This document shows, piece after piece, positions 13,112-26,317 of a stretch of DNA of 64,000 nucleotides. Numbering within the stretch: the stretch's first letter is position 1; every line of letters starts with the position of its first letter. The notes under the pieces are model-generated. The model saw only the letters and a list, made by a program, of their open reading frames with translations. It was not told the DNA's origin and did not search any database. This stretch comes from Myxococcota bacterium (GTDB taxonomy: Bacteria; Myxococcota_A; UBA796; GCA-2862545): assembly GCA_039208735.1 (NCBI GenBank), contig JBCCQY010000028.1, positions 10,595 to 74,594 on the forward strand. Direction: 5' to 3'. Made by a program: the position numbers and the translations under genes.

Positions 13112-14197
13112 TCACTCGGTTCGGGTGGTGTTTCGTTGCTGCCGACGGCGGAACACCACCGCAAGCACCTTCGCCACCGGCACGAACAAGTCGGTGGGCA
13201 CCGCATCCCCCACTTCACAACGCTTGTAGAGCGCCCGGGCGAGGGGTCGGTTTTGGATACGGGGTACCGCGGCCTTCCGGGCTTCGCTGCGGATGCGCGC
13301 CGCAAGATGGTCGGCGCCCTTGCACAGCACCTTGGGCGCTTCGTCGTGGGCCCGGTCGTACTTGAGCGCGACCGCGAGGTGGGTGGGGTTGGTGACCACG
13401 ACGTCGGCATCACGGACCGCATTGAGGCTGATGGCGAGCGCAATCTTTCGAGCGCGTTGACGACGAAATGCCTTGAACCGAGGATCTCCCTCTTGTTCCT
13501 TCTGGTCGTCCCGAAGTTCACGATCCGTTCGCTTGAGCTGCTCGAGCGTCCGCTGGTAGCTCGCGGCATAGTCGATAGCCGCGATGACGATGATGATCGG
13601 CGCCGCGGCCAAGACGGCCGACCAACCTAAGTCCACGAGCAGCTGAAGCAACTGGCCGACCGTCAGCGTCGCGGCCCGAGGCAATGCCGCGATCTTCGGC
13701 CACAACGCGAGGAGGACGGTCGCACCAATCACCAAGATCTTCGCCACACCCTTGGCGAGCTCGAGCAAGGGGGTCCACGACAGATACGTCTGCTGAAACC
13801 CTGAAACGACGTCGAGCCGCTCCCATTTCGGCTCCAACGCCTTGGGCGCCAGTTGCAGTCGCGACTGGGCAATGCTGGCCAGCGTCGAGGCAACAAGCGA
13901 GGCCGCCAACGGCACCGAAATGCTCAAAGCCAACAACACGAGCGCTTCATTCAGCAGCCCGTGCGCTCCGGTCAAGGTCAGGTTGTAGGGACCTTTGCCG
14001 TCGAACCAGGTGACGGACGCCCGTACGAAGGCGTCGTGGACGGGGCCCGGGAACAACACCCACGCGGCCGCAGCCGAAATGACGACCGCCGCGGCATTGA
14101 CGTCCGCCGACCGAGGCATTTGCCCCTTTTCAGCCGCCTCACGCCACTTCTTCTCACCGGGGTCGTGTTTCCGGTCACCCGCGTCCTCGTCGGCCAT
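13112..14197 (-). CDS. flhB: Flagellar export protein FlhB
   Basis: N-terminal KGQMPRS, EGDP and intact NPTH autocleavage motif; sits in the fliPQR cluster. Confidence 0.93.
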   Translation of the reverse strand: MADEDAGDRKHDPGEKKWREAAEKGQMPRSADVNAAAVVISAAAAWVLFPGPVHDAFVRASVTWFDGKGPYNLTLTGAHGLLNEALVLLALSISVPLAASLVASTLASIAQSRLQLAPKALEPKWERLDVVSGFQQTYLSWTPLLELAKGVAKILVIGATVLLALWPKIAALPRAATLTVGQLLQLLVDLGWSAVLAAAPIIIVIAAIDYAASYQRTLEQLKRTDRELRDDQKEQEGDPRFKAFRRQRARKIALAISLNAVRDADVVVTNPTHLAVALKYDRAHDEAPKVLCKGADHLAARIRSEARKAAVPRIQNRPLARALYKRCEVGDAVPTDLFVPVAKVLAVVFRRRQQRNTTRTE

Positions 14198-14953
14198 CTA
14201 CATCCCAAGCCAGCTTGGGAAGGCCGCGATGATCTTCTTCATCGCATCGGCATGGAGGGTGAGGATCCACGGGAGCGATAGCCAGAACAGCGTCATGCCA
14301 CCGATCGTCGTCGCCGTGAGGCCGATGGAAAAGAAGACGTTCATGCGGGGGGCCAGCCGGGCGAGAATCGCCACGAGCACATTCACCACGAACACCATGG
14401 CCAACATCGGCCCCGCGAGCTGCACTCCGAGCGTGAAGTGCCACCCCACCGTGGCGATGATGGCCTGTGGCAGGTCAGGAGACGGCGCAAGGTGACCCGG
14501 AGGCACCTTGGTGAAGCTGTCAGCCAGCATCTGCAGGACATACAGGTGAAGGCCCATCCCCAAAAAGACCATGCCCGACAGCCACGATGCCACGGTACCC
14601 ACCATCGTCGACGTTTGGACCTGCAAGGGGTCGAACATCGTGGCCATCGCGAGGCCCGTCTGCATGCTCATCAGTTCCGCAGCGAGCGACAACGACTGGA
14701 AAATCGCCCGAATGCCCAGCGTCGTCAGAAAGCCGTAGAGCACCTCCACCCCCACGAGCACGATGACCGCATCGAGGGTGGCGGGGGCGGCCGTGATGGG
14801 AAGCGTGGGCAAAATCAGTATCGTCACGCCGACGGTGACCAACACGATGGCCTGGCGGGGCGTGCCCAGCGTCGAGAAGATGGGCAGTCCCGCCACCACG
14901 GCCGCCAATCGGCTGAACGCGAGCACCAGGGTGAAGACGGCATCCGCCAGCAT
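14198..14953 (-). CDS. fliR: Flagellar export protein FliR
   Basis: Highly hydrophobic; QTGLAMATMFDP and RLAPRMNVF motifs. Confidence 0.92.
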   Translation of the reverse strand: MLADAVFTLVLAFSRLAAVVAGLPIFSTLGTPRQAIVLVTVGVTILILPTLPITAAPATLDAVIVLVGVEVLYGFLTTLGIRAIFQSLSLAAELMSMQTGLAMATMFDPLQVQTSTMVGTVASWLSGMVFLGMGLHLYVLQMLADSFTKVPPGHLAPSPDLPQAIIATVGWHFTLGVQLAGPMLAMVFVVNVLVAILARLAPRMNVFFSIGLTATTIGGMTLFWLSLPWILTLHADAMKKIIAAFPSWLGM

Positions 14954-14956
14954 GGG

Positions 14957-15220
14957 TCAGCCGACAGGAATCGACAAGAACATTTGCTGAGCGAAGGTCA
15001 CCGCGACCTGGAGCATCCATCCGCCCGCTACGGCGACGACCAACATGGCAGCCAGAATCTTCGGAACGAAGACGAGGGTGACTTCCTGCACCTGGGTCAC
15101 CGCCTGCAGCACGCTAATCACCGTACCAACCACCAAACTTGCAAGGAGCAGCGGTCCCGCCACGTAGAGCATGGCGAGCAATGCGGATTGTCCTAGGGCT
15201 ACGGCCCCTTCGATGGTCAT
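14957..15220 (-). CDS. fliQ: Flagellar export protein FliQ
   Basis: 87 aa with QAVTQVQEVTLVFVPK signature. Confidence 0.95.
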   Translation of the reverse strand: MTIEGAVALGQSALLAMLYVAGPLLLASLVVGTVISVLQAVTQVQEVTLVFVPKILAAMLVVAVAGGWMLQVAVTFAQQMFLSIPVG

Positions 15221-15966
15221 CGAATGCCTCCCACCATGCCGGCAACAAGCAGCCCCCAGCCATCCATCAACACGAACACCAGCAGCTTGAAGGGCAGTGA
15301 CACCACGACGGGAGGCAACATCATCATGCCCATCCCAAGGAGGACGCTGGCCACCACGAGGTCAACCACGAGGAAGGGCAGGTAAACCTTCACGGCGATG
15401 GTGAAGGCGGTTCGCAGCTCCGACAGCACAAATCCGGTCACCACCACGGGCGTCGGAATGTCGTCGAGGGTCTCGGGACGTGCCTGTCGGGCGAGCTTCA
15501 TGGCCGCAGCAAGGTCGTCTCGGGCCACATTCTTGAGCATGAACGACCGCATCGGACCCATCGCCTTGGGATAGCTCTCCTCGATCGACGCTTGCCCTGA
15601 AATGAAGGGATGAATCCCCTCAGACCACGCCTTCTGTGTCGTCGGCTGCATGACGGTCATCGTCAGCACGAGCGACAAGCCAATCAGCACCTGGTTCGGC
15701 GGAGATTGCTGAAGGCCCAATGCCTGACGCAGCAGCGAAAACACGATGATGAATCGCGTGAACGGCGTCATGGCCAAGATGACCCCAGGCAACAGCGTCA
15801 ACGCGGTGAGCGTGAGCACCAGCCGGACGCTCATCGAAGCCGCCTCGGGCGCCGCGTCGGAGGCGACGCCCACGAGCGCGTCCCCCACCGATGGCTCCGC
15901 GGCGTGCGCCGGTCCCGCGACCAGCCACACGGCGAGCATCAACCCTAAACATCGCAGTAACGGCAA
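15217..15966 (-). CDS. fliP: Flagellar export protein FliP
   Basis: MTPFTRFIIV, LGLQQSPPNQ and GMMMLPP..SLPFKL..DGW motifs; cleavable signal peptide typical of flagellar FliP; TTG start. Confidence 0.95.
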   Translation of the reverse strand: MPLLRCLGLMLAVWLVAGPAHAAEPSVGDALVGVASDAAPEAASMSVRLVLTLTALTLLPGVILAMTPFTRFIIVFSLLRQALGLQQSPPNQVLIGLSLVLTMTVMQPTTQKAWSEGIHPFISGQASIEESYPKAMGPMRSFMLKNVARDDLAAAMKLARQARPETLDDIPTPVVVTGFVLSELRTAFTIAVKVYLPFLVVDLVVASVLLGMGMMMLPPVVVSLPFKLLVFVLMDGWGLLVAGMVGGIR

Positions 15967-17744: not shown

Positions 17745-18105
17745 TTGCACATTATTGCAAAATTCGCAAACTCGACCGAGCGACCCCGAGCAGGAGTCGG
17801 CTAATCTGACCGCGCCTTTTTTTGAGGCCCGAACGAAGTCGGCCGGGATCCCAGCCGGGCAGTATCCTGCAAACTCTCCGTGAAACGTCGATGGTGCGAA
17901 AAAGTCCCGGTGAGACGATACGCAACCGCAGGTCCGCCGGTTCGCGAGGCAATCGTTTACCCTATGCATTGCTGTCACAAAGCATCTCAGCACTGTCGTT
18001 CGCCAGGATGCGGCAGCAAGATCCTGTAAATGAACTCGCGTTGGTATTCACATACTAGAACACCGTTCCAATGACCCATCTGGCGAATCGAGGTACCCAT
18101 GTCTC

Positions 18106-18708
18106 ATGCCTTCGTACCTCGACACTGACCCCCGACGTGACCGTATTCTCCAAGCCGCGCTTGTCCTCTGTCTGGAGCGCAATCCCGAGTCGGTGACCAT
18201 CCAGCAGATACGCGGTCTTTCCGGCGCTTCTACCGGGAGTATTTATCACCACTTTCGCGACAAGCAGGGTCTGTTCTTTGAGTTGTTCCTGACCGCCACC
18301 CGCAACTACCACGCGACGGTCCTTGAGGCGGTGGAGTTCGCGACGGGGCCGCGAGCGTTCGTGCGAGCCGTCGTCCGCTCCCACCTCGACTGGATGACCG
18401 AGCATACGAGTTTGGCGAGGTTCATGCAGTCGGCTCGGCGTTCCGAACTGGTGCGAGGCGATGAGCCCGATGTCAAGGAGCAGCACCGCGACTTCGTCGA
18501 TGCCGTCTGCCAGCATCTGGCCCCGTGGGTCGACGCCGAACAGATTCGTCGACTGCCGTGCGACATGACGATGGCGGTCATGCTGGGTCCCATGGAGCAC
18601 TACACGGCGGAATGGCTCATGGGCCGGACGCTGACCGAACCTAGCCAGGCGTTCGGCTTGCTGTCTGAGGCAGCCTGGGAAGCGCTGCGCGTCGTTCCTT
18701 CGATTTAG
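18106..18708 (+). CDS. TetR/AcrR family transcriptional regulator
   Basis: N-terminal HTH: RILQAA...TIQQI...STGSIYHHFRDK. Confidence 0.9.
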   Translation: MPSYLDTDPRRDRILQAALVLCLERNPESVTIQQIRGLSGASTGSIYHHFRDKQGLFFELFLTATRNYHATVLEAVEFATGPRAFVRAVVRSHLDWMTEHTSLARFMQSARRSELVRGDEPDVKEQHRDFVDAVCQHLAPWVDAEQIRRLPCDMTMAVMLGPMEHYTAEWLMGRTLTEPSQAFGLLSEAAWEALRVVPSI

Positions 18709-18877
18709 GCTATTCGGAGAGCCTGCCAATTTTGGTATTCTGAACTTAATTTTTGACAATCTGTCCCACTGATTCGCACACGCGAAGCGAGCAGGTGGGA
18801 TAGTTTGTGCGGAACTGCGGTGGTCACCTTCACCAGCATCCGGCACCTTGAGGACAGAACCAAGTCCTGGAGGCGCC

Positions 18878-20059
18878 ATGGATGCGACGCCGAGGCGGCG
18901 AGCCGTCCCCATCGAGGTCCCGTCCCCTCGCTACGTCGTGTGGGAACTCACGCTGCGCTGTGACCTCGCTTGTCGCCATTGTGGGTCTCGCGCCGGAGGA
19001 GCCCGTGAACGCGAACTCTCCCTGGCCGAGTGCCGCGACGTGGTCGACGAGCTGGTCGCCCTCGGTACGCGCGAAGTCGTGTTCATCGGGGGAGAGGCGT
19101 ATCTGCACCCTCACTGGCTCGGGGTGGTTGAACATGCCGCGGCACAGGGCCTCCGTTGTCTAATGACGACCGGCGGACGCCGATTCACGCCCGCGCTTGC
19201 CGAACGTGCGGCCGCGGCCGGTTTGGCCCAGATCAGCGTCTCCATCGACGGATTAGAGGCGACACACGACCATCTTCGGGCGATTCCGGGTAGCTTTCAG
19301 GCCGCGCTCGACACCCTCCGAAACGCGCGGGCGGCGGGAATTGGCATTACCGCCAACACCCAATTCAATCGGCTGAATCTGCCCGAACTCGAAGAGCTCG
19401 CCGACGTTCTGCTCGATGCCGGTGTTGAAGCGTGGCAAACCCAGATCACAGGTCCTATGGGACGCGCCGCGGACGGTCGGGACTGGCTTTTGCAGCCCTA
19501 TGACCTGTTGGACCTCGTGCCTCGCCTGGCCGCGGTCGCACGACGCGCCAAGGACCGGGGCTGTCGGATTGTGGCCGGAAACAACCTTGGCTATTTCGGA
19601 CCTTACGAGTCGGACCTTCGCGCAGGTGGCTACTTTCAGGGCTGCGTGGCCGGGCGCTACGTGCTGGGTATCGAGTCGAACGGCGACATCAAAGGGTGTC
19701 CCTCCCTTCCGAGTGCGCCGTATGTCGGAGGCAACGTCCGCCACCGACCCCTCGCCCAGATCTGGGCCGAGTCCGAACGACTTTCCTTCACTCGGGACAA
19801 TCGAAAATCCGAGCTGTGGGGCCACTGTGCGACGTGCCACTACGCCGAGGTCTGCCAAGGCGGCTGCAGTTGGACCGCCCATACCTTGCTGGGGCGTCGC
19901 GGAAACATGCCGTACTGCTACCACCGCGCTGAGCAACTGAAGGCACGCGGCCTTCGCGAACGCGTCCGTCAGGTGGAACGCAGCGAACGGCGACCTTTTG
20001 ATTTTGGACGCTTCGAGCTTTGTGAAGAGCCATGGGAGGATGGACATGTGGAAGTGTGA
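18878..20059 (+). CDS. Radical SAM/SPASM peptide or protein maturase (PlpX/GDL-associated, splicease-like)
   Basis: VWELTLRCDLACRHCGSRAG (CxxxCxxC), IGGE, SPASM C.AG...NGDIKGCPSL...CxxCx5CxxxC; GGAGG RBS before ATG 18878. Confidence 0.85.
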   Translation: MDATPRRRAVPIEVPSPRYVVWELTLRCDLACRHCGSRAGGARERELSLAECRDVVDELVALGTREVVFIGGEAYLHPHWLGVVEHAAAQGLRCLMTTGGRRFTPALAERAAAAGLAQISVSIDGLEATHDHLRAIPGSFQAALDTLRNARAAGIGITANTQFNRLNLPELEELADVLLDAGVEAWQTQITGPMGRAADGRDWLLQPYDLLDLVPRLAAVARRAKDRGCRIVAGNNLGYFGPYESDLRAGGYFQGCVAGRYVLGIESNGDIKGCPSLPSAPYVGGNVRHRPLAQIWAESERLSFTRDNRKSELWGHCATCHYAEVCQGGCSWTAHTLLGRRGNMPYCYHRAEQLKARGLRERVRQVERSERRPFDFGRFELCEEPWEDGHVEV

Positions 20060-20804
20060 GACGTGTGAGCGGCATGTGCTGCCGGTGGTGCAGGTGTGCC
20101 CCTTCTGCACGACGCTGCGGGTCGCAAGTTGGTCTACCGCAGTCGTGACGCCGATCGTGCTGTCCGCGTGCTACGGCGCCCCCCCGTGCGCCGACGACCA
20201 AGTGACCGACCAGGACAACGATGGCTTCGTCGTGCCGCTCCCCAACCAAGCCTGTTGGCCGGCTGGTGAACCCGACTGCGACGATACCGACGCCACCGTG
20301 AATCCTGGCGCAGCAGAGATCTGCGGCGACGGCATCGACAACAACTGCGATGGCATCGAAGCCGACCCCTCTCAAATCGAAGTCTGCAATGGGCTGGACG
20401 ACGACTGCGATGGAGACATCGATGAAGACGACGCCTGCAACTTCAGCGACACGGGGACCGACACCGGCCCGGATGGCCCCTCCACCGCGGCGGCCTCCAT
20501 CTCCATCGACTGGTCGAACGGCCTCACCACGTGCAGCGATGCGGGGGTTCAAACACTGACCATCGCCCTCCGTACGCAGGTCGATCAGCCGGCTTCCGTA
20601 AGCCAGGACGTCGCCTGTGCCGAGACGGTGATCGTGGAAGGGCTGCCCGAAGGAGCGTGGCTCATCGATGCCAAGGGTGAAGCGACCGATGGCCTGCGAA
20701 CGTGGCAGAGCGCCTCACGAGTCATCAGCCTGACGCCCGACGAAACCGAATCTACGGGCCTCGAACTGACCTGCAGCGCCGAGGACCCCACCCACTGCGG
20801 GTGA
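20046..20804 (+). CDS. Putative rSAM substrate lipoprotein (CxxC-RH-CPFC leader, LSAC-YG motif, MopE-like repeats)
   Basis: MWKCETCERHVLPVVQVCPFC..., LSACYGAPP, DCDD...PGAAEICGDGIDNNCDG; overlaps the rSAM stop; GGGAGGA RBS. Confidence 0.75.
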   Translation: MWKCETCERHVLPVVQVCPFCTTLRVASWSTAVVTPIVLSACYGAPPCADDQVTDQDNDGFVVPLPNQACWPAGEPDCDDTDATVNPGAAEICGDGIDNNCDGIEADPSQIEVCNGLDDDCDGDIDEDDACNFSDTGTDTGPDGPSTAAASISIDWSNGLTTCSDAGVQTLTIALRTQVDQPASVSQDVACAETVIVEGLPEGAWLIDAKGEATDGLRTWQSASRVISLTPDETESTGLELTCSAEDPTHCG

Positions 20805-20934
20805 AACGCTGGCCCCCGCCGGGTGAACCCCAGATGAAATCCAGCATCTCGGCCCCAAATTCGCGATCGATGGGGCCGGGATTCAGCTTGCTCACGGGCC
20901 CTCCTCCTCCATAGGCAGAGGCTACGGAGGAACC

Positions 20935-21459
20935 ATGTGGATGCTGTTGTGGAGCGCGCTCGGCTGTGGACTGGCGACGTCCCAAGATCTCTGGCTTGAC
21001 GTTCAGATCAAGGAGTCCCCCCAAATCGACGTTCACCTTCCGGCGAACTGGATGCTCGACGCAGAAGAGCCGCTCACCATCGAGACCCCAGACGGCTCCA
21101 TCGACCTTCGGGACGAAGCGCGGCAGCTCAACCAGAGTCCGGTCCGAGGGTCCCGGTCCTGGACGCTCGATGAACGCACAAAGCTCACCCTCCGCGAATT
21201 GAAGCCCGGAAAGGCCAAGGCGGAACGCATTCGCGTGGGTGCCTCGGGCCCTCGTGGCTTCGGGCTGGGCATTGGTGTGCCCCTCAACCCCAACAAACTC
21301 GGTCCGGTCCGCACCGCGTTCGATGCCAACCTGGACGTTCATGGGCTCGAGGTGGACTACGGCACTGCGTTTTGCGAACAGCTCGCGCGTTCGGCGCCCA
21401 CCACCCTGTTGAAGGTCACGGGTGGCAAGGGGGGCGGCTTCACCGTGGCCACCGAGTAG
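20935..21459 (+). CDS. Hypothetical lipoprotein
   Basis: Lipobox ALGC; GGAGG RBS. Confidence 0.6.
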   Translation: MWMLLWSALGCGLATSQDLWLDVQIKESPQIDVHLPANWMLDAEEPLTIETPDGSIDLRDEARQLNQSPVRGSRSWTLDERTKLTLRELKPGKAKAERIRVGASGPRGFGLGIGVPLNPNKLGPVRTAFDANLDVHGLEVDYGTAFCEQLARSAPTTLLKVTGGKGGGFTVATE

Positions 21460-21537
21460 CCATCGCGAAGGGGCCACGAAGGAACCACGAAGCGGCCGGT
21501 CCGACGCAGCGCTTATCCCTCTGACATTGGAGGGAAC

Positions 21538-22359
21538 ATGAAAACCGCTCGACTCGCTACGGTTGTTCCGCTGGCCTTATTCGCGAACGCCTGCACCACG
21601 CAGGCGGTCGATGACACCATCAACTTCTCGTTCGACATCGAAATCGAGGACGTCGATTTCAACTGTGTTGAAAACGACAGTGACGTCATCGAAGACAAGG
21701 AACGGTCCATTGGCTTCACCACCACAAGCAACTACGCCTCGTTGGAATGGTGCAGGGTCGGAGGCTACTATCGAGGACCCGTCCTGAGCTTCCAGGAACT
21801 GAACGACTCGATTCCGGGGGGCGTGCGCGAGTTCCTGTGGACGGACGTGAACGTCGTGCTCAACAGCTTCGACGTGAACATCTCCAACGTCGACACCGTC
21901 GTTCAGGGTTCGTACTTCCTGATGGGCGCCGAAACGGGCACGGAATCCGACATCCCCACCATCGAAAACGATGAATACGGCTACGACGGAGGCCTTGCCA
22001 TTCCAAGCCGCCTCGCCGTCCGGTCCCGCGACGGCGCCGCAGGCACCTTGTTCGCCGCCTACACCCCGAATGCCGGTCTTTCCAAGCCCATTGCGTTGGA
22101 CACCTTGGTCTCGCTGGTCGGGGGCCAGCTCACCACCGAAGTGGCGGATTCGCGCAACCTCGCCGACGTCTTCAACGCGGCCTACGCAAGCGGCGATGAA
22201 GATCTGTACGTGTTTGGGTCAGGCGTACTCGAAGTCCCCAAGACCTCGCTTCCCAAGACGCCAGGCGACATCACGATTGGGGTGGACATGACCCTCGAGT
22301 ACCAGGCCAACGCCAAGATCAACCTGATCGGCGCGGCGCAGTCCCTCAACGACGAGTAG
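21538..22359 (+). CDS. Hypothetical lipoprotein
   Basis: Lipobox ANAC; acidic beta-rich body; GGAGG RBS. Confidence 0.65.
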   Translation: MKTARLATVVPLALFANACTTQAVDDTINFSFDIEIEDVDFNCVENDSDVIEDKERSIGFTTTSNYASLEWCRVGGYYRGPVLSFQELNDSIPGGVREFLWTDVNVVLNSFDVNISNVDTVVQGSYFLMGAETGTESDIPTIENDEYGYDGGLAIPSRLAVRSRDGAAGTLFAAYTPNAGLSKPIALDTLVSLVGGQLTTEVADSRNLADVFNAAYASGDEDLYVFGSGVLEVPKTSLPKTPGDITIGVDMTLEYQANAKINLIGAAQSLNDE

Positions 22360-22404
22360 CGAGGCCCCCGGCTCGGTTACAGCCTCACGACCACGGAGGT
22401 CACG

Positions 22405-22887
22405 ATGGATCTAATCGAGCAGCTTGCCAGCACCCTCGGCGTTGACGCAAAGGCCGCACAGGCGGTCGCCGGGGCAGTCCTCGGCGCCACCCGCGAGCAG
22501 GTTCCCGATGAGGAGACCGCCAAGCTCGACGAGGCGGTGCCCGAGATTGGAGATTGGTCGTCCACCGCTGAAGAGATGCTGAAGGCTGCCTCGGGTGACG
22601 GGGGCGGCGGCCTGTTTGGCACGCTTGCACGCATGGCGGGCACCGGGGCAGGCAACGAAATCCTTGGCGCGGTACTCGGCGAAGAAGCCCAAGATACCGC
22701 ACAGATCGTGGCGCTCTTTCAGTCGCTGGGACTCAAGACGGAGCATGCCAGCATGGCCGCTCCCGTCGTGCTCGACTTCCTCGTCGACCGAGTGGGCAAG
22801 GAGTGGACCGACCGCATCCTCGACGGAGCCCCCATGCTCATGAAGTTCGTCCAGTCGCAGACCACGGATCAGCCTGACAACGGGTGA
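22405..22887 (+). CDS. DUF2780/VcgC-like protein
   Basis: MDLIEQLASTLGV..AQAVAG..L, AVP, FQSLGL and PVVLDF pattern. Confidence 0.55.
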   Translation: MDLIEQLASTLGVDAKAAQAVAGAVLGATREQVPDEETAKLDEAVPEIGDWSSTAEEMLKAASGDGGGGLFGTLARMAGTGAGNEILGAVLGEEAQDTAQIVALFQSLGLKTEHASMAAPVVLDFLVDRVGKEWTDRILDGAPMLMKFVQSQTTDQPDNG

Positions 22888-23729
22888 GCCCGAAACCACT
22901 CGACCAGGTAGTCCACAAACGCGCGTAGCTTCCGAGGCAGGGGGCGGAGCGGCGGGTACATCGCAAAGACGGCGAAGGCCTGCTCCGTGTCAGCGGGACC
23001 GGTGCGTACCAGCCTTCCTTCGAGTACATCGGTCCTCGCCAAAAACTCTGGCAGAAACCCTAGCCCCAACCCTTGACGCACCATGGCCCGCACGACCAGC
23101 ATGTCATCGGTCCGAAACACGGTGGTGCCGTCTTCGGGCGAAGGTCCTACCCACCGGATGAAGGCGTGCGAGGACGCCTCGTCGGAGCGCCGGAATCGGC
23201 CGAACCGCTGCAGATAGCCAGGTGTCGCGTACAGACCGCCGGAAGCGGAAGCCAAGCGACGGGCCCGAAGCGGGGAATCCGGGAGCGGCTCGAGGGTGAC
23301 CCGCAAGGCCACATCGAGGCCCTCGGCCACCAAATCGTGCGACTGACTCGACGCATGAACCACCAGCGACACTCGCGGATACCGCCTTGCAAAGCCGGCG
23401 AAGGCTTCCGCACAGGCCTCGATGGCCAAGTCGTGCGGCACCGTCACGCGGAGTTCGCCGGTGGGCTCATCCCGTTGCTCGGGAACCTCCACGATGGCTC
23501 GGTCGATGGCGGCGAGCGGCGCCGCCACCCGGGCATAAAAGGCTTCTCCCGCACTCGAGAGGACCACCCGGCGCGTGGTCCGGTGCAAAAGTTGCACCCC
23601 GAGTTGCTCCTCGAGCTTGGCGACCCGACGGCTCACCGACGATCGGGGCAAGCCCAAAGACGCGGAAGCAGCAGTAAATCCACCACGATCCGCTACCTCT
23701 ACGAAGACGCGCACCAACTCGAGATCCAT
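22869..23729 (-). CDS. LysR family transcriptional regulator
   Basis: HTH: FVEVADRGGFTAA...SVSRRV..LE..LGVQLLHRTTR; divergent from the dioxygenase. Confidence 0.92.
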   Translation of the reverse strand: MDLELVRVFVEVADRGGFTAASASLGLPRSSVSRRVAKLEEQLGVQLLHRTTRRVVLSSAGEAFYARVAAPLAAIDRAIVEVPEQRDEPTGELRVTVPHDLAIEACAEAFAGFARRYPRVSLVVHASSQSHDLVAEGLDVALRVTLEPLPDSPLRARRLASASGGLYATPGYLQRFGRFRRSDEASSHAFIRWVGPSPEDGTTVFRTDDMLVVRAMVRQGLGLGFLPEFLARTDVLEGRLVRTGPADTEQAFAVFAMYPPLRPLPRKLRAFVDYLVEWFRAHPLSG

Positions 23730-23819
23730 TCGTGCTTCCACGGCACGAGTCCTGTAGCAACTGCAGCTCTGGTGCCCTGTCAACACGATGCTAGATCAAG
23801 GACCTGACTTGGAGGCCCC

Positions 23820-24626
23820 GTGTCTGCTCCCACCCGCATGCCGGTCGTGTTCCTGCCCCACGGCGGAGGTCCCTACTCCTACGTCGATTTGGGCCGACCG
23901 AAGGAGGAGGTCGACGCGCTCGCCGGCTACTGGCGAACGATTGGCCCTTCATTGCCCCAGCCCCCACGTGCAGCCCTCGTTGTCTCCGCGCATTGGGAGC
24001 AGCCTGTTCCCACCGTGATGACCTCGCCGAAGCCACCTCTGCTGTTCGACTACTACGGCTTTCCGCCGGCTTCGTACGAGCTGTCCTGGCCCGCACCGGG
24101 GTCTGCCGACCTCGCTCAGCGGGTTCAGGAACTGCTCCGTGCGGCCGACATCCCGAGCGCAACCGACGCCGCGCGCGGCTTTGACCACGGCACGTTCGTT
24201 CCGATGGGTCGCGTGTTTCCTCAGGCGGACGTGCCCACGATCCAGCTCTCGCTGCGCGAAAGCCTCGACCCTGCCGAGCACTTGGCGTTGGGTAAGGCCC
24301 TCACCCCGTTGCGGGATGAGGGCGTTCTCATCGTGGGCAGCGGCATGAGCTACCACAACATGCGCGGCTTCTTCAAAGGCGAAGGATCGAGCGCAGATGC
24401 CCGATTCGATGCCTGGCTACACGAAACGGTTCGGGCCGACCGCGCCACTAGAGATGCCGCACTCCTGAACTGGGCCCACGCGCCCGCTGCGCGCGAGGCG
24501 CATCCCCGTGAGGAACACCTTCTGCCACTCATGGTCGTCGCGGGAGCGGCCGGTGATGACGCAGCAAACGTGCCGTTCCACGGGCGCGTGTTCGGCAAAC
24601 TCGTATCGGCGGTTCATTTCGGCTGA
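23820..24626 (+). CDS. DODA/YgiD-type extradiol dioxygenase (LigB family)
   Basis: HGGGP, SAHWE, YYGFP, RGFDHG, GSGMSYHN and HPREEHLLP motifs. Confidence 0.9.
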   Translation: MSAPTRMPVVFLPHGGGPYSYVDLGRPKEEVDALAGYWRTIGPSLPQPPRAALVVSAHWEQPVPTVMTSPKPPLLFDYYGFPPASYELSWPAPGSADLAQRVQELLRAADIPSATDAARGFDHGTFVPMGRVFPQADVPTIQLSLRESLDPAEHLALGKALTPLRDEGVLIVGSGMSYHNMRGFFKGEGSSADARFDAWLHETVRADRATRDAALLNWAHAPAAREAHPREEHLLPLMVVAGAAGDDAANVPFHGRVFGKLVSAVHFG

Positions 24627-25360: not shown

Positions 25361-26317
25361 TCAGGTGACTTCCACTTGGCGGACCCGCAAACGCACAAAG
25401 CCCCTGCGCTTTTCGAGGCACCAAGGGTCGAGACTCGCCCCCCGGAGCTCGGCGCGGATGTTGTGGAGCAACGCCTTGAGTTTGCGCGGTCCCTCATGGC
25501 GCGCCGAGCGACCCCACACGGCCACCCGCACCGACTCGTTGGAACGCCAACCGGGGTCCGTGACCCGCTTGTTGAAGTCGTCGCGCAAGGCTTCGGCGAG
25601 GAAGTAGATCATCGCCACCCGATTGTCAGCGGTCAACGTATGCGATCGACCGGTATCGAGGCAGCGAAAGCGTGCCCAAGGCCCTCGGTCGGGGTCGAAG
25701 GCCGTCTCCACCACGTAGGGATGGCTCGTGTCCTCGTCGGTAGCGGTGGGCAACCAGCCCGCTTCCGCCTCAACAAGACGCAGCTCCACGCCTCCGATGG
25801 TGAACGTCTCCCCAGGCTTGAGGGGCTGGTCTTCATCGTTGATGCCGAGCCAGACTTCGCCGTCAGGATGCGCGATCAGCACCCCTGACACGCCCGACCC
25901 TTCGGGGATGCGTAGATCGGCGTTGGGGTCGTCGCCAATCAAGGTGTGCGATTGTCGTAGGGGAAAGCGAACGCCCGAGCTGACGTCTTCGACCGACATG
26001 GAGCGAAAGGTCTTGGGTTCTCGGGGATCCGCTACCTCAAAGGTGAGTTCCACCTCTTCGATCTGCAGCCTGGTTCCGATCTGCCACTCGGTAGGGTCGG
26101 TGATGGGCTGGCCGTCGAGGCGAGTGCCGTTGCGGCTTCCGAGGTCCTTCACGAAGACCTTGCCTTCGTTCTCCCATACGAGCGCGTGATTCCATGAAAC
26201 GCGATCGATGGTGAGAACAAGGTCGTTGTCGGGGCCCCGCCCGATAGCGACCTGGCCTTCGAGAGGGACTGCTTGCTTTGGCCCGGATGCGGGATGGACG
26301 AGGAGTTCAAGTGCCAT
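25361..26317 (-). CDS. FHA-domain protein with a second FHA-like domain and a C-terminal winged-helix-like region
   Basis: IGRG..NDL, VSWNHA and DLGSRNGT; second repeat IGDD..ADL; OmpR-like tail. Confidence 0.75.
   Translation of the reverse strand: MALELLVHPASGPKQAVPLEGQVAIGRGPDNDLVLTIDRVSWNHALVWENEGKVFVKDLGSRNGTRLDGQPITDPTEWQIGTRLQIEEVELTFEVADPREPKTFRSMSVEDVSSGVRFPLRQSHTLIGDDPNADLRIPEGSGVSGVLIAHPDGEVWLGINDEDQPLKPGETFTIGGVELRLVEAEAGWLPTATDEDTSHPYVVETAFDPDRGPWARFRCLDTGRSHTLTADNRVAMIYFLAEALRDDFNKRVTDPGWRSNESVRVAVWGRSARHEGPRKLKALLHNIRAELRGASLDPWCLEKRRGFVRLRVRQVEVT

What the first reader, a model, noticed from the sequence alone, without database searches (positions are those of the whole stretch)
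18878..20804. Splicease-like radical SAM enzyme coupled to a lipoprotein with a Cys-motif leader and YG directly after the lipobox Cys
Seen in sequence: an rSAM/SPASM gene overlaps the next ORF by 14 nt. That ORF begins MWKCETCERHVLPVVQVCPFC, then a hydrophobic stretch, then LSAC-YG-APP (TAC GGC at 20172-20177), then MopE-like Ca/metal repeats and a beta domain. Established: PlpX-type rSAM spliceases excise tyramine from X-Y-G motifs to leave an alpha-keto-beta-amino acid, and a related rSAM/lipoprotein pairing is known from Bacteroidetes. Inference: X here would be the lipidated Cys itself, so a ~250 aa surface protein, rather than a small RiPP, could carry a backbone ketoamide at its membrane anchor. 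The CxxC...CPFC element in the signal peptide may stand in for the RRE/PlpY partner, since no such gene is visible.
Basis: partly seen in the sequence, partly recalled or inferred. Interest (0 to 1): 0.8.

Follow-up and report, generated by a model that had tools for sequence, protein, structure and literature searches.

The report
Splicease-like enzyme targeting a lipoprotein's anchor
A radical SAM enzyme of the backbone-splicing family overlaps the gene of a zinc-ribbon-headed lipoprotein precursor whose invariant Tyr-Gly site directly follows the cysteine that would carry the lipid anchor, so the cell likely makes a surface protein with a reactive keto-amide at its membrane anchor; the gene pairing recurs across myxobacteria, but the chemistry is untested.

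Summary
A radical SAM/SPASM gene (18878-20059) overlaps by 14 nt a 252-aa ORF (20046-20804). That ORF has a CxxC...CPFC zinc ribbon, a hydrophobic stretch, a lipobox (LSAC) followed at once by YG, MopE-type repeats and a predicted beta-sandwich.

The enzyme scores far higher on the two splicease-related NCBIfam models (462 and 413 bits) than on heme/PQQ enzymes (157 bits or less), but it is below both curated cut-offs.

I examined 86 related rSAM copies in Myxococcota. Of these, 33 sit beside a zinc-ribbon lipoprotein with lipobox-Cys-Tyr-Gly and 27 beside one with x-Y-G-x-P cores further downstream. The C-Y-G type falls in two well-supported enzyme clades. In this genome C-Y-G follows 1 of 987 lipobox-like sites. 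A narrow pattern found true C-Y-G partners only in genomes that have the rSAM (21 of 138 against 0 of 263).

A complex model puts residues 39-46 (L-S-A-C-Y-G-A-P) in the enzyme barrel (score 0.94, best control 0.02).

My reading is a binary spliceotide-type system whose leader doubles as a lipoprotein signal peptide. It is a new variant of a known kind. This scan has met the general system before in other myxobacterial genomes. No mass-spectrometric proof exists.

The parts
18106..18708 (+). TetR-family regulator gene upstream. It is context only and is conserved upstream in the closest relative L013, not in the wider set.
   Evidence: Pfam TetR_N 39.5 bits. L013 has the same upstream gene.
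18869..18873 (+). GGAGG Shine-Dalgarno-like site 4 nt before the rSAM ATG
   Evidence: Read from the sequence.
18878..20059 (+). Radical SAM/SPASM enzyme, 393 aa, splicease-related. The CX3CX2C motif is at C28/C32/C35. The SPASM cysteines C256, C274, C317, C320, C326, C330 and C347 are invariant.
   Evidence: TIGR04103 462 bits, TIGR03913 413 bits.
20035..20039 (+). GGAGG Shine-Dalgarno-like site 6 nt before the partner ATG, inside the rSAM gene. This fits translational coupling.
   Evidence: Read from the sequence.
20046..20804 (+). Partner/substrate gene, 252 aa: a zinc-ribbon-led lipoprotein precursor
20055..20108 (+). Zinc ribbon C4-x2-C7 ... C18-P-F-C21, the predicted cytoplasmic head of the leader/signal peptide
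   Evidence: C4, C7, C18, P19 and C21 are invariant in 28 partners.
20121..20171 (+). Hydrophobic h-region (residues 26-38) and lipobox L39-S40-A41-C42
   Evidence: L39, A41 and C42 are invariant. In the model, residues 34-49 form the confident interface with the enzyme.
20169..20186 (+). Predicted splice site C42-Y43-G44 followed by A-P-P. Y43 would be the tyrosine cut out.
20208..20438 (+). Acidic, Cys-rich MopE-type repeats (about residues 55-131), typical of extracytoplasmic proteins
   Evidence: Pfam PF11617, 2 stretches, 67 bits. PDB 2vov. The Cys and Asp columns are conserved in A3.
20484..20801 (+). C-terminal predicted beta-sandwich (about residues 147-252), present only in the closest relatives
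   Evidence: AlphaFold2 pLDDT about 90 over this part. Foldseek gives weak matches to pilotin, pilin and adhesin sandwiches, best E 9.7e-4.

Best explanation
The radical SAM/SPASM gene (18878-20059) and the overlapping zinc-ribbon/lipobox gene (20046-20804) are a conserved gene pair, likely enzyme and substrate, and the enzyme is predicted to excise a tyramine unit from Tyr43 of the invariant Cys42-Tyr43-Gly44 motif, which would leave an alpha-keto-beta-amino residue at the very cysteine that is likely lipidated after export.

Shown by calls or by the sequence:
- the 14-nt overlap;
- the enzyme's placement next to the splicease models;
- the recurrence of the pairing;
- the invariance of the zinc ribbon, the lipobox and YG.

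Inferred order of events:
1. Both proteins are made from one mRNA.
2. In the cytoplasm the enzyme grips the end of the signal peptide and the C-Y-G-A-P stretch, with some help from the zinc ribbon, and performs the splice.
3. The Sec pathway exports the protein.
4. Lgt adds diacylglycerol to Cys42, and LspA cuts between Ala41 and Cys42. The housekeeping signal peptidase thereby removes the 'leader'.
5. Lnt may acylate the new N-terminus.
6. The mature MopE-repeat/beta-sandwich protein sits on the envelope with an electrophilic keto-amide as its first backbone link.

The use of that group (protease capture, covalent tethering or controlled release) is not known.
For: Enzyme family:
- TIGR04103 (PlpX-type) scores 462 bits and TIGR03913 413 bits. 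The next family scores 158 bits, and AhbD, NirJ2, NirJ and PqqE score 157 to 98 bits.
- Fourteen other myxobacterial copies behave alike.
- The rSAM and SPASM cysteines are invariant in 35 sequences.

Pairing:
- Of the 86 rSAM copies examined (window plus L013-L096; L018 and L038 are the same place), 33 have a zinc-ribbon lipoprotein with lipobox-C-Y-G within 2.6 kb.
- 3 have C-A-Y-G, 27 have YG further downstream, 2 have a partner without YG, and 21 have no partner found.
- Among copies at least 57% identical to the window's enzyme, 25 of 28 are the C-Y-G type.
- The C-Y-G type falls in two starred clades: 97%, with 23 of 25 rows, and 99%, with 10 of 13 rows. No downstream-YG partner lies inside either clade.

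Site:
- YG is invariant in 28 aligned partners and in 5 further database relatives.
- Downstream-type cores read P-[LA]-Y-G-x-P, with P at G+2 in 62 of 76 sites. This resembles the PlpXY splice tag ...RPLYGLPI... (PMC10533398, Table 1 passage). The window has Y-G-A-P-P.

Specificity:
- The leader motif occurs once in the genome.
- C-Y-G follows 1 of 987 lipobox-like sites.
- True CPxC...ACYG ORFs were found in 21 of the 138 genomes with the rSAM and in 0 of the 263 without it.

Complex model:
- Score 0.94, best control 0.02. That mark was reached by 116 of 157 solved complexes and by 2 of 215 mismatched pairs.
- The three runs agree in at least 59% of contacts, and the partner's pLDDT is at least 63.
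- The tightest pairs join partner residues 39-46 to enzyme residues 19, 21, 68, 70, 95, 97, 120, 158-160, 185-189 and 275-276.
- No similar complex is solved. The nearest PDB chains score 64 bits or less.

Export:
- The lipobox L-[AS]-A-C is invariant.
- The mature part is made of Cys-rich MopE repeats.
- Lgt, LspA and Lnt are present above their cut-offs.
Against: - No member of this myxobacterial clade has been tested in anything I could read.
- The enzyme is below the curated cut-offs of both related models (462 against 725, and 413 against 591.75), so it is not an equivalog of PlpX.
- X = Cys was not among the natural or engineered X residues in the passages I read (Met, Leu, Gly, 'a variety').
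- The site lies at the end of a hydrophobic signal sequence, so the enzyme would have to act before Sec targeting.
- The link between enzyme clade and site position is not strict. G020 and G112 carry a C-Y-G partner but only one rSAM, and that rSAM belongs to another clade.
- G272 has three C-Y-G partners, each more than 4 kb from any rSAM copy.
- 21 of the 86 copies had no partner within 2.6 kb.
- P at G+2 holds in only 16 of 29 C-Y-G partners.
- The loci are not a random sample. They are 15 close relatives, the 29 best phylum hits and 40 hand-picked further hits.
- The tree is the quick search, not the finished careful one.
- The complex score is the model's own confidence. It used my own alignments and ligands that the calibration did not include.
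- Lipidation is inferred from sequence only.
Confidence: 0.55

Rival explanations
1. The enzyme-substrate pair is the same, but the chemistry differs. The rSAM/SPASM enzyme would modify the C-Y-G site in another way, for example a thioether or C-C cross-link involving Cys42 or Tyr43, epimerisation, or hydroxylation, and would not excise tyramine.
For: The enzyme fails the curated cut-offs of TIGR04103 and TIGR03913, so it is a separate family. SPASM enzymes in the hit list carry out many reactions on Cys-containing peptides: sactipeptide, ranthipeptide and SkfB types. A thiol next to the tyrosine could divert a radical intermediate.
Against: Across the wider family the conserved element is Y-G-x-P with variable X (L, A, V, P, E), not Cys. 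Cys is present only where the site coincides with the lipobox. The core resembles validated PlpXY splice tags (PMC10533398 passage). Splicease-related models outscore all other rSAM families by about 250 bits or more.
Confidence: 0.2
2. The pair and the splice are real, but the partner is not a lipoprotein. The zinc ribbon and hydrophobic stretch would stay as an uncleaved N-in membrane anchor, and the modified site would sit at the outer face of the inner membrane.
For: The n-region is 25 residues long and holds a folded zinc ribbon, which is unusual for a signal peptide. I had no predictor of signal-peptidase II cleavage and no experimental data. A keto-amide next to Cys42 might disturb Lgt or LspA.
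Against: L39, A41 and C42 are invariant, and position -2 is A, S or M in all 37 C-Y-G partners. Downstream-YG partners keep a lipobox-like Cys as well. Such conservation would be unexplained for a plain anchor. The genome has Lgt, LspA and Lnt.
Confidence: 0.15
3. There is no functional link. The rSAM would be a cofactor or heme-type enzyme (NirJ, Ahb or PqqE-like) that happens to lie beside an ordinary surface protein.
For: Weak matches to AhbD, NirJ and PqqE exist (98-157 bits), as for any SPASM enzyme.
Against: The genes overlap by 14 nt. The pairing recurs in 65 of 86 copies. True C-Y-G partners were found only in genomes with the rSAM. The complex score is 0.94 against 0.02 for the controls.
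Confidence: 0.03

Closest known systems
Type I spliceotide systems PlpX/PlpY/PlpA and PcpXYA of Pleurocapsa (PMC11414181 introduction and first results; PMC11002830 and PMC9811515 passages). That TIGR04103 is the model holding PlpX is my recollection.
   Same: The enzyme is a radical SAM/SPASM protein whose best family match is TIGR04103. An X-Y-G site lies in a neighbouring gene product. The Y-G-x-P context resembles the PlpA splice tag.
   Different: The enzyme is below the TIGR04103 cut-off (462 against 725). No PlpY-like gene is nearby. There is no Nif11 or NHLP leader; the leader is a zinc ribbon plus a lipoprotein signal peptide. X is the lipobox cysteine. The product would be a 211-residue exported protein, not a short peptide.
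Binary (type II) spliceotide systems RhaX/RhaA, RcsX/RcsA and RasX/RasA of Rheinheimera (PMC11414181; PMC11626197 passages)
   Same: The architecture has two components and no Y protein. A part of the substrate's own leader is modelled as docking on the enzyme. The structure model places XYG in the barrel.
   Different: Those substrates are small cytoplasmic RiPP precursors, with MYG or LYG cores, that yield protease-inhibiting peptides. Here the leader is also an export and lipidation signal, and the cleavage site abuts the modified residue.
Myxobacterial zinc-ribbon lipoprotein partners with downstream x-Y-G-x-P cores
   Same: Both have the same enzyme family, the same zinc ribbon, hydrophobic stretch and lipobox head, and the same YG-x-P core.
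   Different: In the window's type the single core is fused to the lipobox, so Cys+1 is X. The enzymes of this type form two separate well-supported clades. The mature part carries folded domains (MopE repeats and a beta-sandwich), not only low-complexity repeats.
TIGR04133 'rSAM_w_lipo' family radical SAM/SPASM proteins (NCBIfam name only)
   Same: It is a SPASM enzyme whose short name links it to a lipoprotein partner.
   Different: The window's enzyme scores 158 bits against a cut-off of 425, so it is not a member. I did not examine that family's partners.

Membership tests
Spliceases / spliceotide systems (PlpX type, NCBIfam TIGR04103) | Radical SAM CX3CX2C motif plus a SPASM domain with auxiliary-cluster cysteines | tested here: met
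   Pfam Radical_SAM 80 bits and SPASM 32 bits. C28, C32, C35 and seven SPASM cysteines are invariant in 35 sequences.
Spliceases / spliceotide systems (PlpX type, NCBIfam TIGR04103) | Score above the curated equivalog cut-off (725 bits) | tested here: not met
   The score is 461.8 bits, the best of all families. Fourteen other myxobacterial copies score 380-519 bits.
Spliceases / spliceotide systems (PlpX type, NCBIfam TIGR04103) | A conserved X-Y-G motif in a co-encoded precursor | tested here: met
   C42-Y43-G44 is invariant in 28 aligned partners. 63 of 86 copies have a YG-bearing partner within 2.6 kb.
Spliceases / spliceotide systems (PlpX type, NCBIfam TIGR04103) | Nif11 or NHLP-type leader and a PlpY-type helper protein (type I only) | tested here: not met
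   The partner has no Pfam or NCBIfam leader family. No PqqD-like family is found among 10 neighbouring ORFs. Binary types lack Y as well (PMC11414181).
Spliceases / spliceotide systems (PlpX type, NCBIfam TIGR04103) | Net loss of C8H9NO (135.06 Da) at XYG, giving an alpha-keto-beta-amino residue | not testable with these tools
   This needs co-expression and LC-MS/MS.
TIGR03913 (GDL motif peptide-associated radical SAM/SPASM maturase) | Score above the curated cut-off (591.75 bits) over the full 477-position model | tested here: not met
   The score is 413.1 bits. Only model positions 18-395 are matched, and the C-terminal ~80 positions are absent.
TIGR04133 (rSAM_w_lipo) | Score above the curated cut-off (425 bits) | tested here: not met
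   158.2 bits.
Heme/cofactor SPASM enzymes (AhbD, AhbC, NirJ, PqqE) | Score above the curated cut-offs (381-650 bits) | tested here: not met
   AhbD 156.6, NirJ2 152.7, AhbC 131.6, NirJ 125.2 and PqqE 98 bits.
Bacterial lipoproteins (signal peptidase II substrates) | Positive n-region, hydrophobic h-region, lipobox L-[AS]-[GA]-C | tested here: met
   R25, a hydrophobic stretch at residues 26-38, and L39-S40-A41-C42. Positions -3 (L in 36 of 37), -1 (A in 37 of 37) and Cys are conserved in the C-Y-G partners. The n-region is atypically long because of the zinc ribbon.
Bacterial lipoproteins (signal peptidase II substrates) | The processing machinery is present in the genome | tested here: met
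   LspA has 2 hits, Lgt 4 and Lnt 2 above their cut-offs.
Bacterial lipoproteins (signal peptidase II substrates) | Actual diacylglyceryl modification and cleavage before Cys | not testable with these tools
   This needs lipid labelling, globomycin treatment or N-terminal MS.
MopE-type metal-binding repeat proteins (Pfam PF11617) | Score above the Pfam gathering cut-off (27 bits) | tested here: met
   67.4 bits in 2 stretches. PDB MopE 2vov matches at E 2.9e-4.

The most novel reading that the evidence does not exclude
The lipoprotein signal peptide is itself the RiPP leader, and the splice is made at the lipidated cysteine. The mature surface protein then begins with an acylated, diacylglyceryl-bearing alpha-keto-beta-cysteine. 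This would be a new kind of lipoprotein N-terminus, placing an electrophilic warhead, or a chemically cleavable joint, right at the membrane anchor. Lgt and LspA would serve as the pathway's export and leader-removal machinery.
Probability: 0.35. Interest if true: 0.8.

Novelty: new variant of a known kind. Interest (0 to 1): 0.62.

Why it matters
Reviews state that the final spliceotide products of native hosts remain elusive (PMC9811515 passage). This system suggests one destination, the cell envelope.

If the splice is confirmed, it would show backbone beta-amino acid chemistry wired into the general lipoprotein pathway. The signal peptide would act as the leader, and LspA as the leader peptidase.

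It would also add a new N-terminal structure to bacterial lipoproteins, and it would give natural protein-sized splicease substrates.

The compact recognition unit (zinc ribbon, hydrophobic stretch and C-Y-G-x-P) could be useful for protein engineering, where splice tags are in use already (PMC10533398, PMC11414181).

About a third of the sampled Myxococcota genomes carry the enzyme family (138 of 401). The biology is therefore widespread, and it is unnamed in Pfam and NCBIfam.

Tried and rejected
- Scott et al. 2022 (Chem 8:2659) is the survey of 939 predicted splicease systems (figure from PMC10533398). It is not held. I therefore cannot say whether it lists a myxobacterial zinc-ribbon lipoprotein type. 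Its supplements may bear on the novelty claim.
- Full-text searches found no paper on such a pairing in the held library. The searches were 'splicease', 'spliceotide', tyramine / radical SAM / lipoprotein / myxobacteria and radical SAM / lipobox / zinc ribbon / ketoamide.
- The promoter and terminator scan of 18000-21600 gave nothing useful.
- NCBIfam gave no family for ten partner proteins. It returned only weak zinc-ribbon and acidic-repeat matches below cut-off.
- The word-indexed protein search with residues 1-60 reached only 5 close relatives, all unnamed.
- The DNA pattern search was noisy. The reversed control matched about as often, and 19 of the 32 places I fetched were chance matches.
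- My first scripts missed some partners because of a GC3 filter and a narrow lipobox regex. L035, L041 and L089 were corrected by eye.
- The AlphaFold2 model of the partner is unreliable for residues 1-143 (pLDDT below 50, 5-row alignment).
- Foldseek matches of the C-terminal sandwich are weak and generic.
- The careful tree search did not finish, so the quick tree was used.
- I considered an anti-sigma-factor-like reading of the zinc ribbon plus membrane segment. I dropped it because no sigma factor gene lies nearby.
Full report
**What is there**

The finding's coordinates and sequence statements are all correct.
- The radical SAM gene starts at ATG 18878, preceded by GGAGG at 18869-18873, and ends with TGA at 20057-20059.
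- The next ORF starts at ATG 20046, preceded by GGAGG at 20035-20039. The two genes therefore overlap by 14 nt, which fits translational coupling. This ORF ends at 20804.
- Its product (252 aa) reads, in order: M-W-K-C4-E-T-C7-E-R-H ... C18-P-F-C21; then T-T-L-R and a 16-residue hydrophobic stretch ending in L39-S40-A41-C42; then Y43-G44-A-P-P-C.
- Y43-G44 is encoded by TAC GGC at 20172-20177.
- Acidic Cys-rich repeats follow. Pfam calls them MopE-type (PF11617, 67 bits, two stretches), and they match PDB MopE 2vov at E 2.9e-4.
- The last ~105 residues fold in AlphaFold2 as a confident eight-strand beta-sandwich with pLDDT about 90.
- That fold resembles, only weakly and generically, sandwiches of pilotins, pilins and adhesins (best Foldseek E 9.7e-4).
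- Residues 1-143 of that model are unreliable.

**The enzyme**

Pfam finds Radical_SAM and SPASM. NCBIfam scores are as follows:

| Model | Bits | Curated cut-off |
|---|---|---|
| TIGR04103 (nif11-class peptide radical SAM maturase 3) | 461.8 | 725 |
| TIGR03913 (GDL motif peptide-associated maturase) | 413.1 | 591.75 |
| TIGR04133 | 158 | 425 |
| AhbD | 157 | not met |
| NirJ2 | 153 | not met |
| NirJ | 125 | not met |
| PqqE | 98 | not met |

Even so, the enzyme is not a member of either curated equivalog.
- Fourteen other myxobacterial copies give the same picture: 380-519 bits on TIGR04103 and 377-481 bits on TIGR03913. This is a third, unnamed sister family.
- That PlpX belongs to TIGR04103 is my recollection. 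A review places PlpX in InterPro IPR026482 (PMC11002830 passage).
- The three radical SAM cysteines and seven SPASM cysteines are invariant in a 35-row alignment.
- No splicease structure is solved. The nearest PDB chains are BlsE, SkfB and PqqE at 64 bits or less.

**The pairing is conserved**

- The genome (9.4 Mb, 288 contigs, 93% complete, 6% contaminated) holds one copy of this enzyme.
- In a sample of the phylum, 138 of 401 genomes have a homolog at E of 1e-60 or better (120 of 339 high-quality genomes).
- I examined 86 rSAM copies: the window, 15 loci from the search for related loci, the 29 best phylum hits and 40 further hits that I picked by hand. This is not a random sample. L018 and L038 are the same place.

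Partner types within 2.6 kb, from scripts with three corrections by eye:

| Partner within 2.6 kb | rSAM copies |
|---|---|
| Zinc-ribbon, hydrophobic, lipobox protein with Y-G directly after the lipobox Cys | 33 |
| C-A-Y-G | 3 |
| Same head, with one to six x-Y-G-x-P cores further downstream | 27 |
| Such a head without YG | 2 |
| No partner found | 21 |

- Among copies at least 57% identical to the window's enzyme, 25 of 28 are the C-Y-G type and 3 have no partner nearby.
- Orientation varies: downstream on the same strand, as here, or divergent upstream.
- Several loci have two tandem partners (L027, L028, L030, L032).
- Nothing else is conserved around the pair. The TetR gene upstream is shared only with the closest relative.

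**The site**

- In 28 aligned C-Y-G partners the invariant columns are C4, C7, C18, P19, C21, L39, A41, C42, Y43 and G44.
- Everything after G44 varies: MopE repeats, Thr/Gly-rich or acidic low-complexity tails, and total lengths of 86 to 282 aa.
- In downstream-type partners, 76 of 111 tyrosines are followed by Gly. The cores read P-[LA]-Y-G-[AVGL]-P-[PA], with Pro at G+2 in 62 of 76 sites. In C-Y-G partners Pro at G+2 holds in 16 of 29.
- This context resembles the PlpXY splice tag printed in PMC10533398 (Table 1 passage, ...RPLYGLPI...).
- Across the family the conserved target is therefore Y-G-x-P. Cys is X only where the core has moved onto the lipobox.

**Specificity controls**

- A six-frame scan of the own genome finds the leader motif C-x2-C-x-[RK]-H-x(4-12)-C-[PA]-x-C once.
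- It finds C-Y-G after 1 of 987 crude lipobox-like sites.
- A DNA pattern for C-P-x-C, 15-25 residues, A-C-Y-G hit 46 places in 39 of 401 genomes. The reversed control hit about as often.
- I fetched 32 of the places. The other 14 were partners I had already seen.
- In all, 27 places in 21 genomes are open ORFs with the hydrophobic stretch, one of them apparently truncated (L114).
- All 21 genomes are among the 138 with the rSAM, and none is among the 263 without it. Relatives are not independent, and the pattern is narrow, so this is a consistency check and not a statistic.

**Enzyme clades**

- A quick IQ-TREE of 85 copies puts the C-Y-G type into two well-supported clades (the careful search did not finish, and the root is at the midpoint).
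- One clade has 97% support and 25 rows: 23 C-Y-G and 2 without a partner. It holds the window.
- The other has 99% support and 13 rows: 10 C-Y-G and 3 without a partner.
- No downstream-YG partner lies inside either clade, which suggests that the enzyme and the site position changed together.
- Against a strict rule, G020 and G112 each have a C-Y-G partner on another contig and only one rSAM, of a different clade.
- G272 has three C-Y-G partners more than 4 kb from any of its three rSAM copies. Action in trans must therefore occur if these partners are modified.

**Complex model**

- I folded the enzyme (35-row alignment) with residues 1-75 of the partner (28-row alignment), SAM and three 4Fe-4S clusters.
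- The score was 0.94 (runs 0.94, 0.83 and 0.94) against a best control of 0.02.
- That mark was reached by 116 of 157 solved complexes and by 2 of 215 mismatched pairs.
- The runs agree in at least 59% of contacts, and the partner's pLDDT is at least 63.
- The confident interface is partner residues 34-49, plus a few zinc-ribbon residues (1, 3, 7-10, 12, 19).
- The tightest pairs join L39, A41, C42, Y43, G44, A45 and P46 to enzyme residues 19, 21, 68, 70, 95, 97, 120, 158-160, 185-189, 261-262 and 275-276. These lie on the barrel strands and at the start of the SPASM part.
- This echoes what Richter et al. report for PlpX and RhaX models (PMC11414181, first results).
- The model supports binding and does not show it. 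It says nothing about the chemistry.

**How it most likely works**

- Shown: the overlap, the family placement, the recurrence and the invariance.
- Inferred: the enzyme acts in the cytoplasm on the nascent or free precursor. It grips the end of the signal peptide and C-Y-G-A-P, and it excises tyramine from Y43 as spliceases do at XYG (PMC11414181, PMC10533398).
- Inferred: the protein is then exported, Cys42 is lipidated by Lgt, and LspA cuts before it. Lgt, LspA and Lnt are all present.
- The leader would thus be removed by housekeeping enzymes, and the keto-amide would be the first backbone link of the mature lipoprotein.
- Cys-rich MopE repeats and a beta-sandwich are what one expects outside the cytoplasm.
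- The absence of PlpY is normal for spliceases outside cyanobacteria (PMC11414181).

**What is known and what is new**

- Spliceotides are an established RiPP class. PMC10533398 cites 27 characterised and 939 predicted systems. PMC10849128 cites 189 genera and 27 confirmed pairs. Protein splicing through splice tags is established.
- I could not read Scott et al. 2022. The four full-text searches found no paper describing a zinc-ribbon lipoprotein substrate.
- Pfam and NCBIfam have no model for the partner.
- This scan has noted the general system before on other myxobacterial genomes. Those notes agree with my reading but are not independent evidence.
- Specific to this window: the single splice core is fused to the lipobox, so X would be the lipidated cysteine, and this type has its own enzyme clades.
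- I file it as a new variant of a known kind. It is unproven chemically, and it is of clear interest to people working on RiPPs and on lipoproteins.

Noticed in passing
L021:5279-5791 (-) and L022:5180-5746 (-): The partners of two more distant rSAM copies (50-52% identity) have no YG at the lipobox. Both end in the same C-terminal tail, P-Y-G-A-P-P-A-R-R-R-[VL]-V, so their single YG core sits at the extreme C-terminus.
   Followed up: partly
L022:5180-5746 (-), residues 2-38: The zinc ribbon of this partner weakly matches positions 428-464 of the 477-position TIGR03913 model (E 0.063). The window's enzyme lacks this part of the model. True TIGR03913 enzymes may carry a fused C-terminal zinc ribbon of the same kind.
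   Followed up: no
G272:C1 around 4941476 and 5397190-5397930 (L115, L116, L143, L144): One near-complete genome has three C-Y-G partner genes that are more than 4 kb from any of its three rSAM copies. Its clade-1 rSAM (L018 = L038) has no partner nearby. These are unlinked 'orphan' substrates.
   Followed up: partly
L114 (G232:C386:2701-3392): A C-Y-G partner whose reading frame stops 13 residues after the Cys (ACYGQPPCSWGRPE*). It may be a broken copy or a sequencing error.
   Followed up: no
window 20935-24626 compared with L013: In the closest relative (L013) a PLD-like gene follows the partner directly. The window has about 3.7 kb of extra genes in between: two unknown ORFs, DUF2780, a LysR regulator and a LigB-type dioxygenase.
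   Followed up: no
window 13112-15966 (-) and 25361-26317 (-): The ORFs upstream look by eye like export-apparatus membrane proteins of a type III secretion or flagellar system. I did not test them. The ORF at 25361-26317 has FHA and Yop-YscD_cpl domains (T3SS inner-membrane component).
   Followed up: no
L013, L016, L023, L025, L026, L027 (record titles): Several MAG records that carry this myxobacterial-type gene pair are labelled Enterobacteriaceae, Enterobacterales, Alphaproteobacteria or Proteobacteria. Their rSAMs nest among Myxococcota copies in the tree, so the labels look unreliable.
   Followed up: no
own genome: C153:15710-16168, C12:42315-42782, C68, C13, C133, C64, C52, C96: The genome has two LspA, four Lgt-family and two Lnt matches above cut-off. 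The estimated contamination is 6%, so some may come from a second organism.
   Followed up: no
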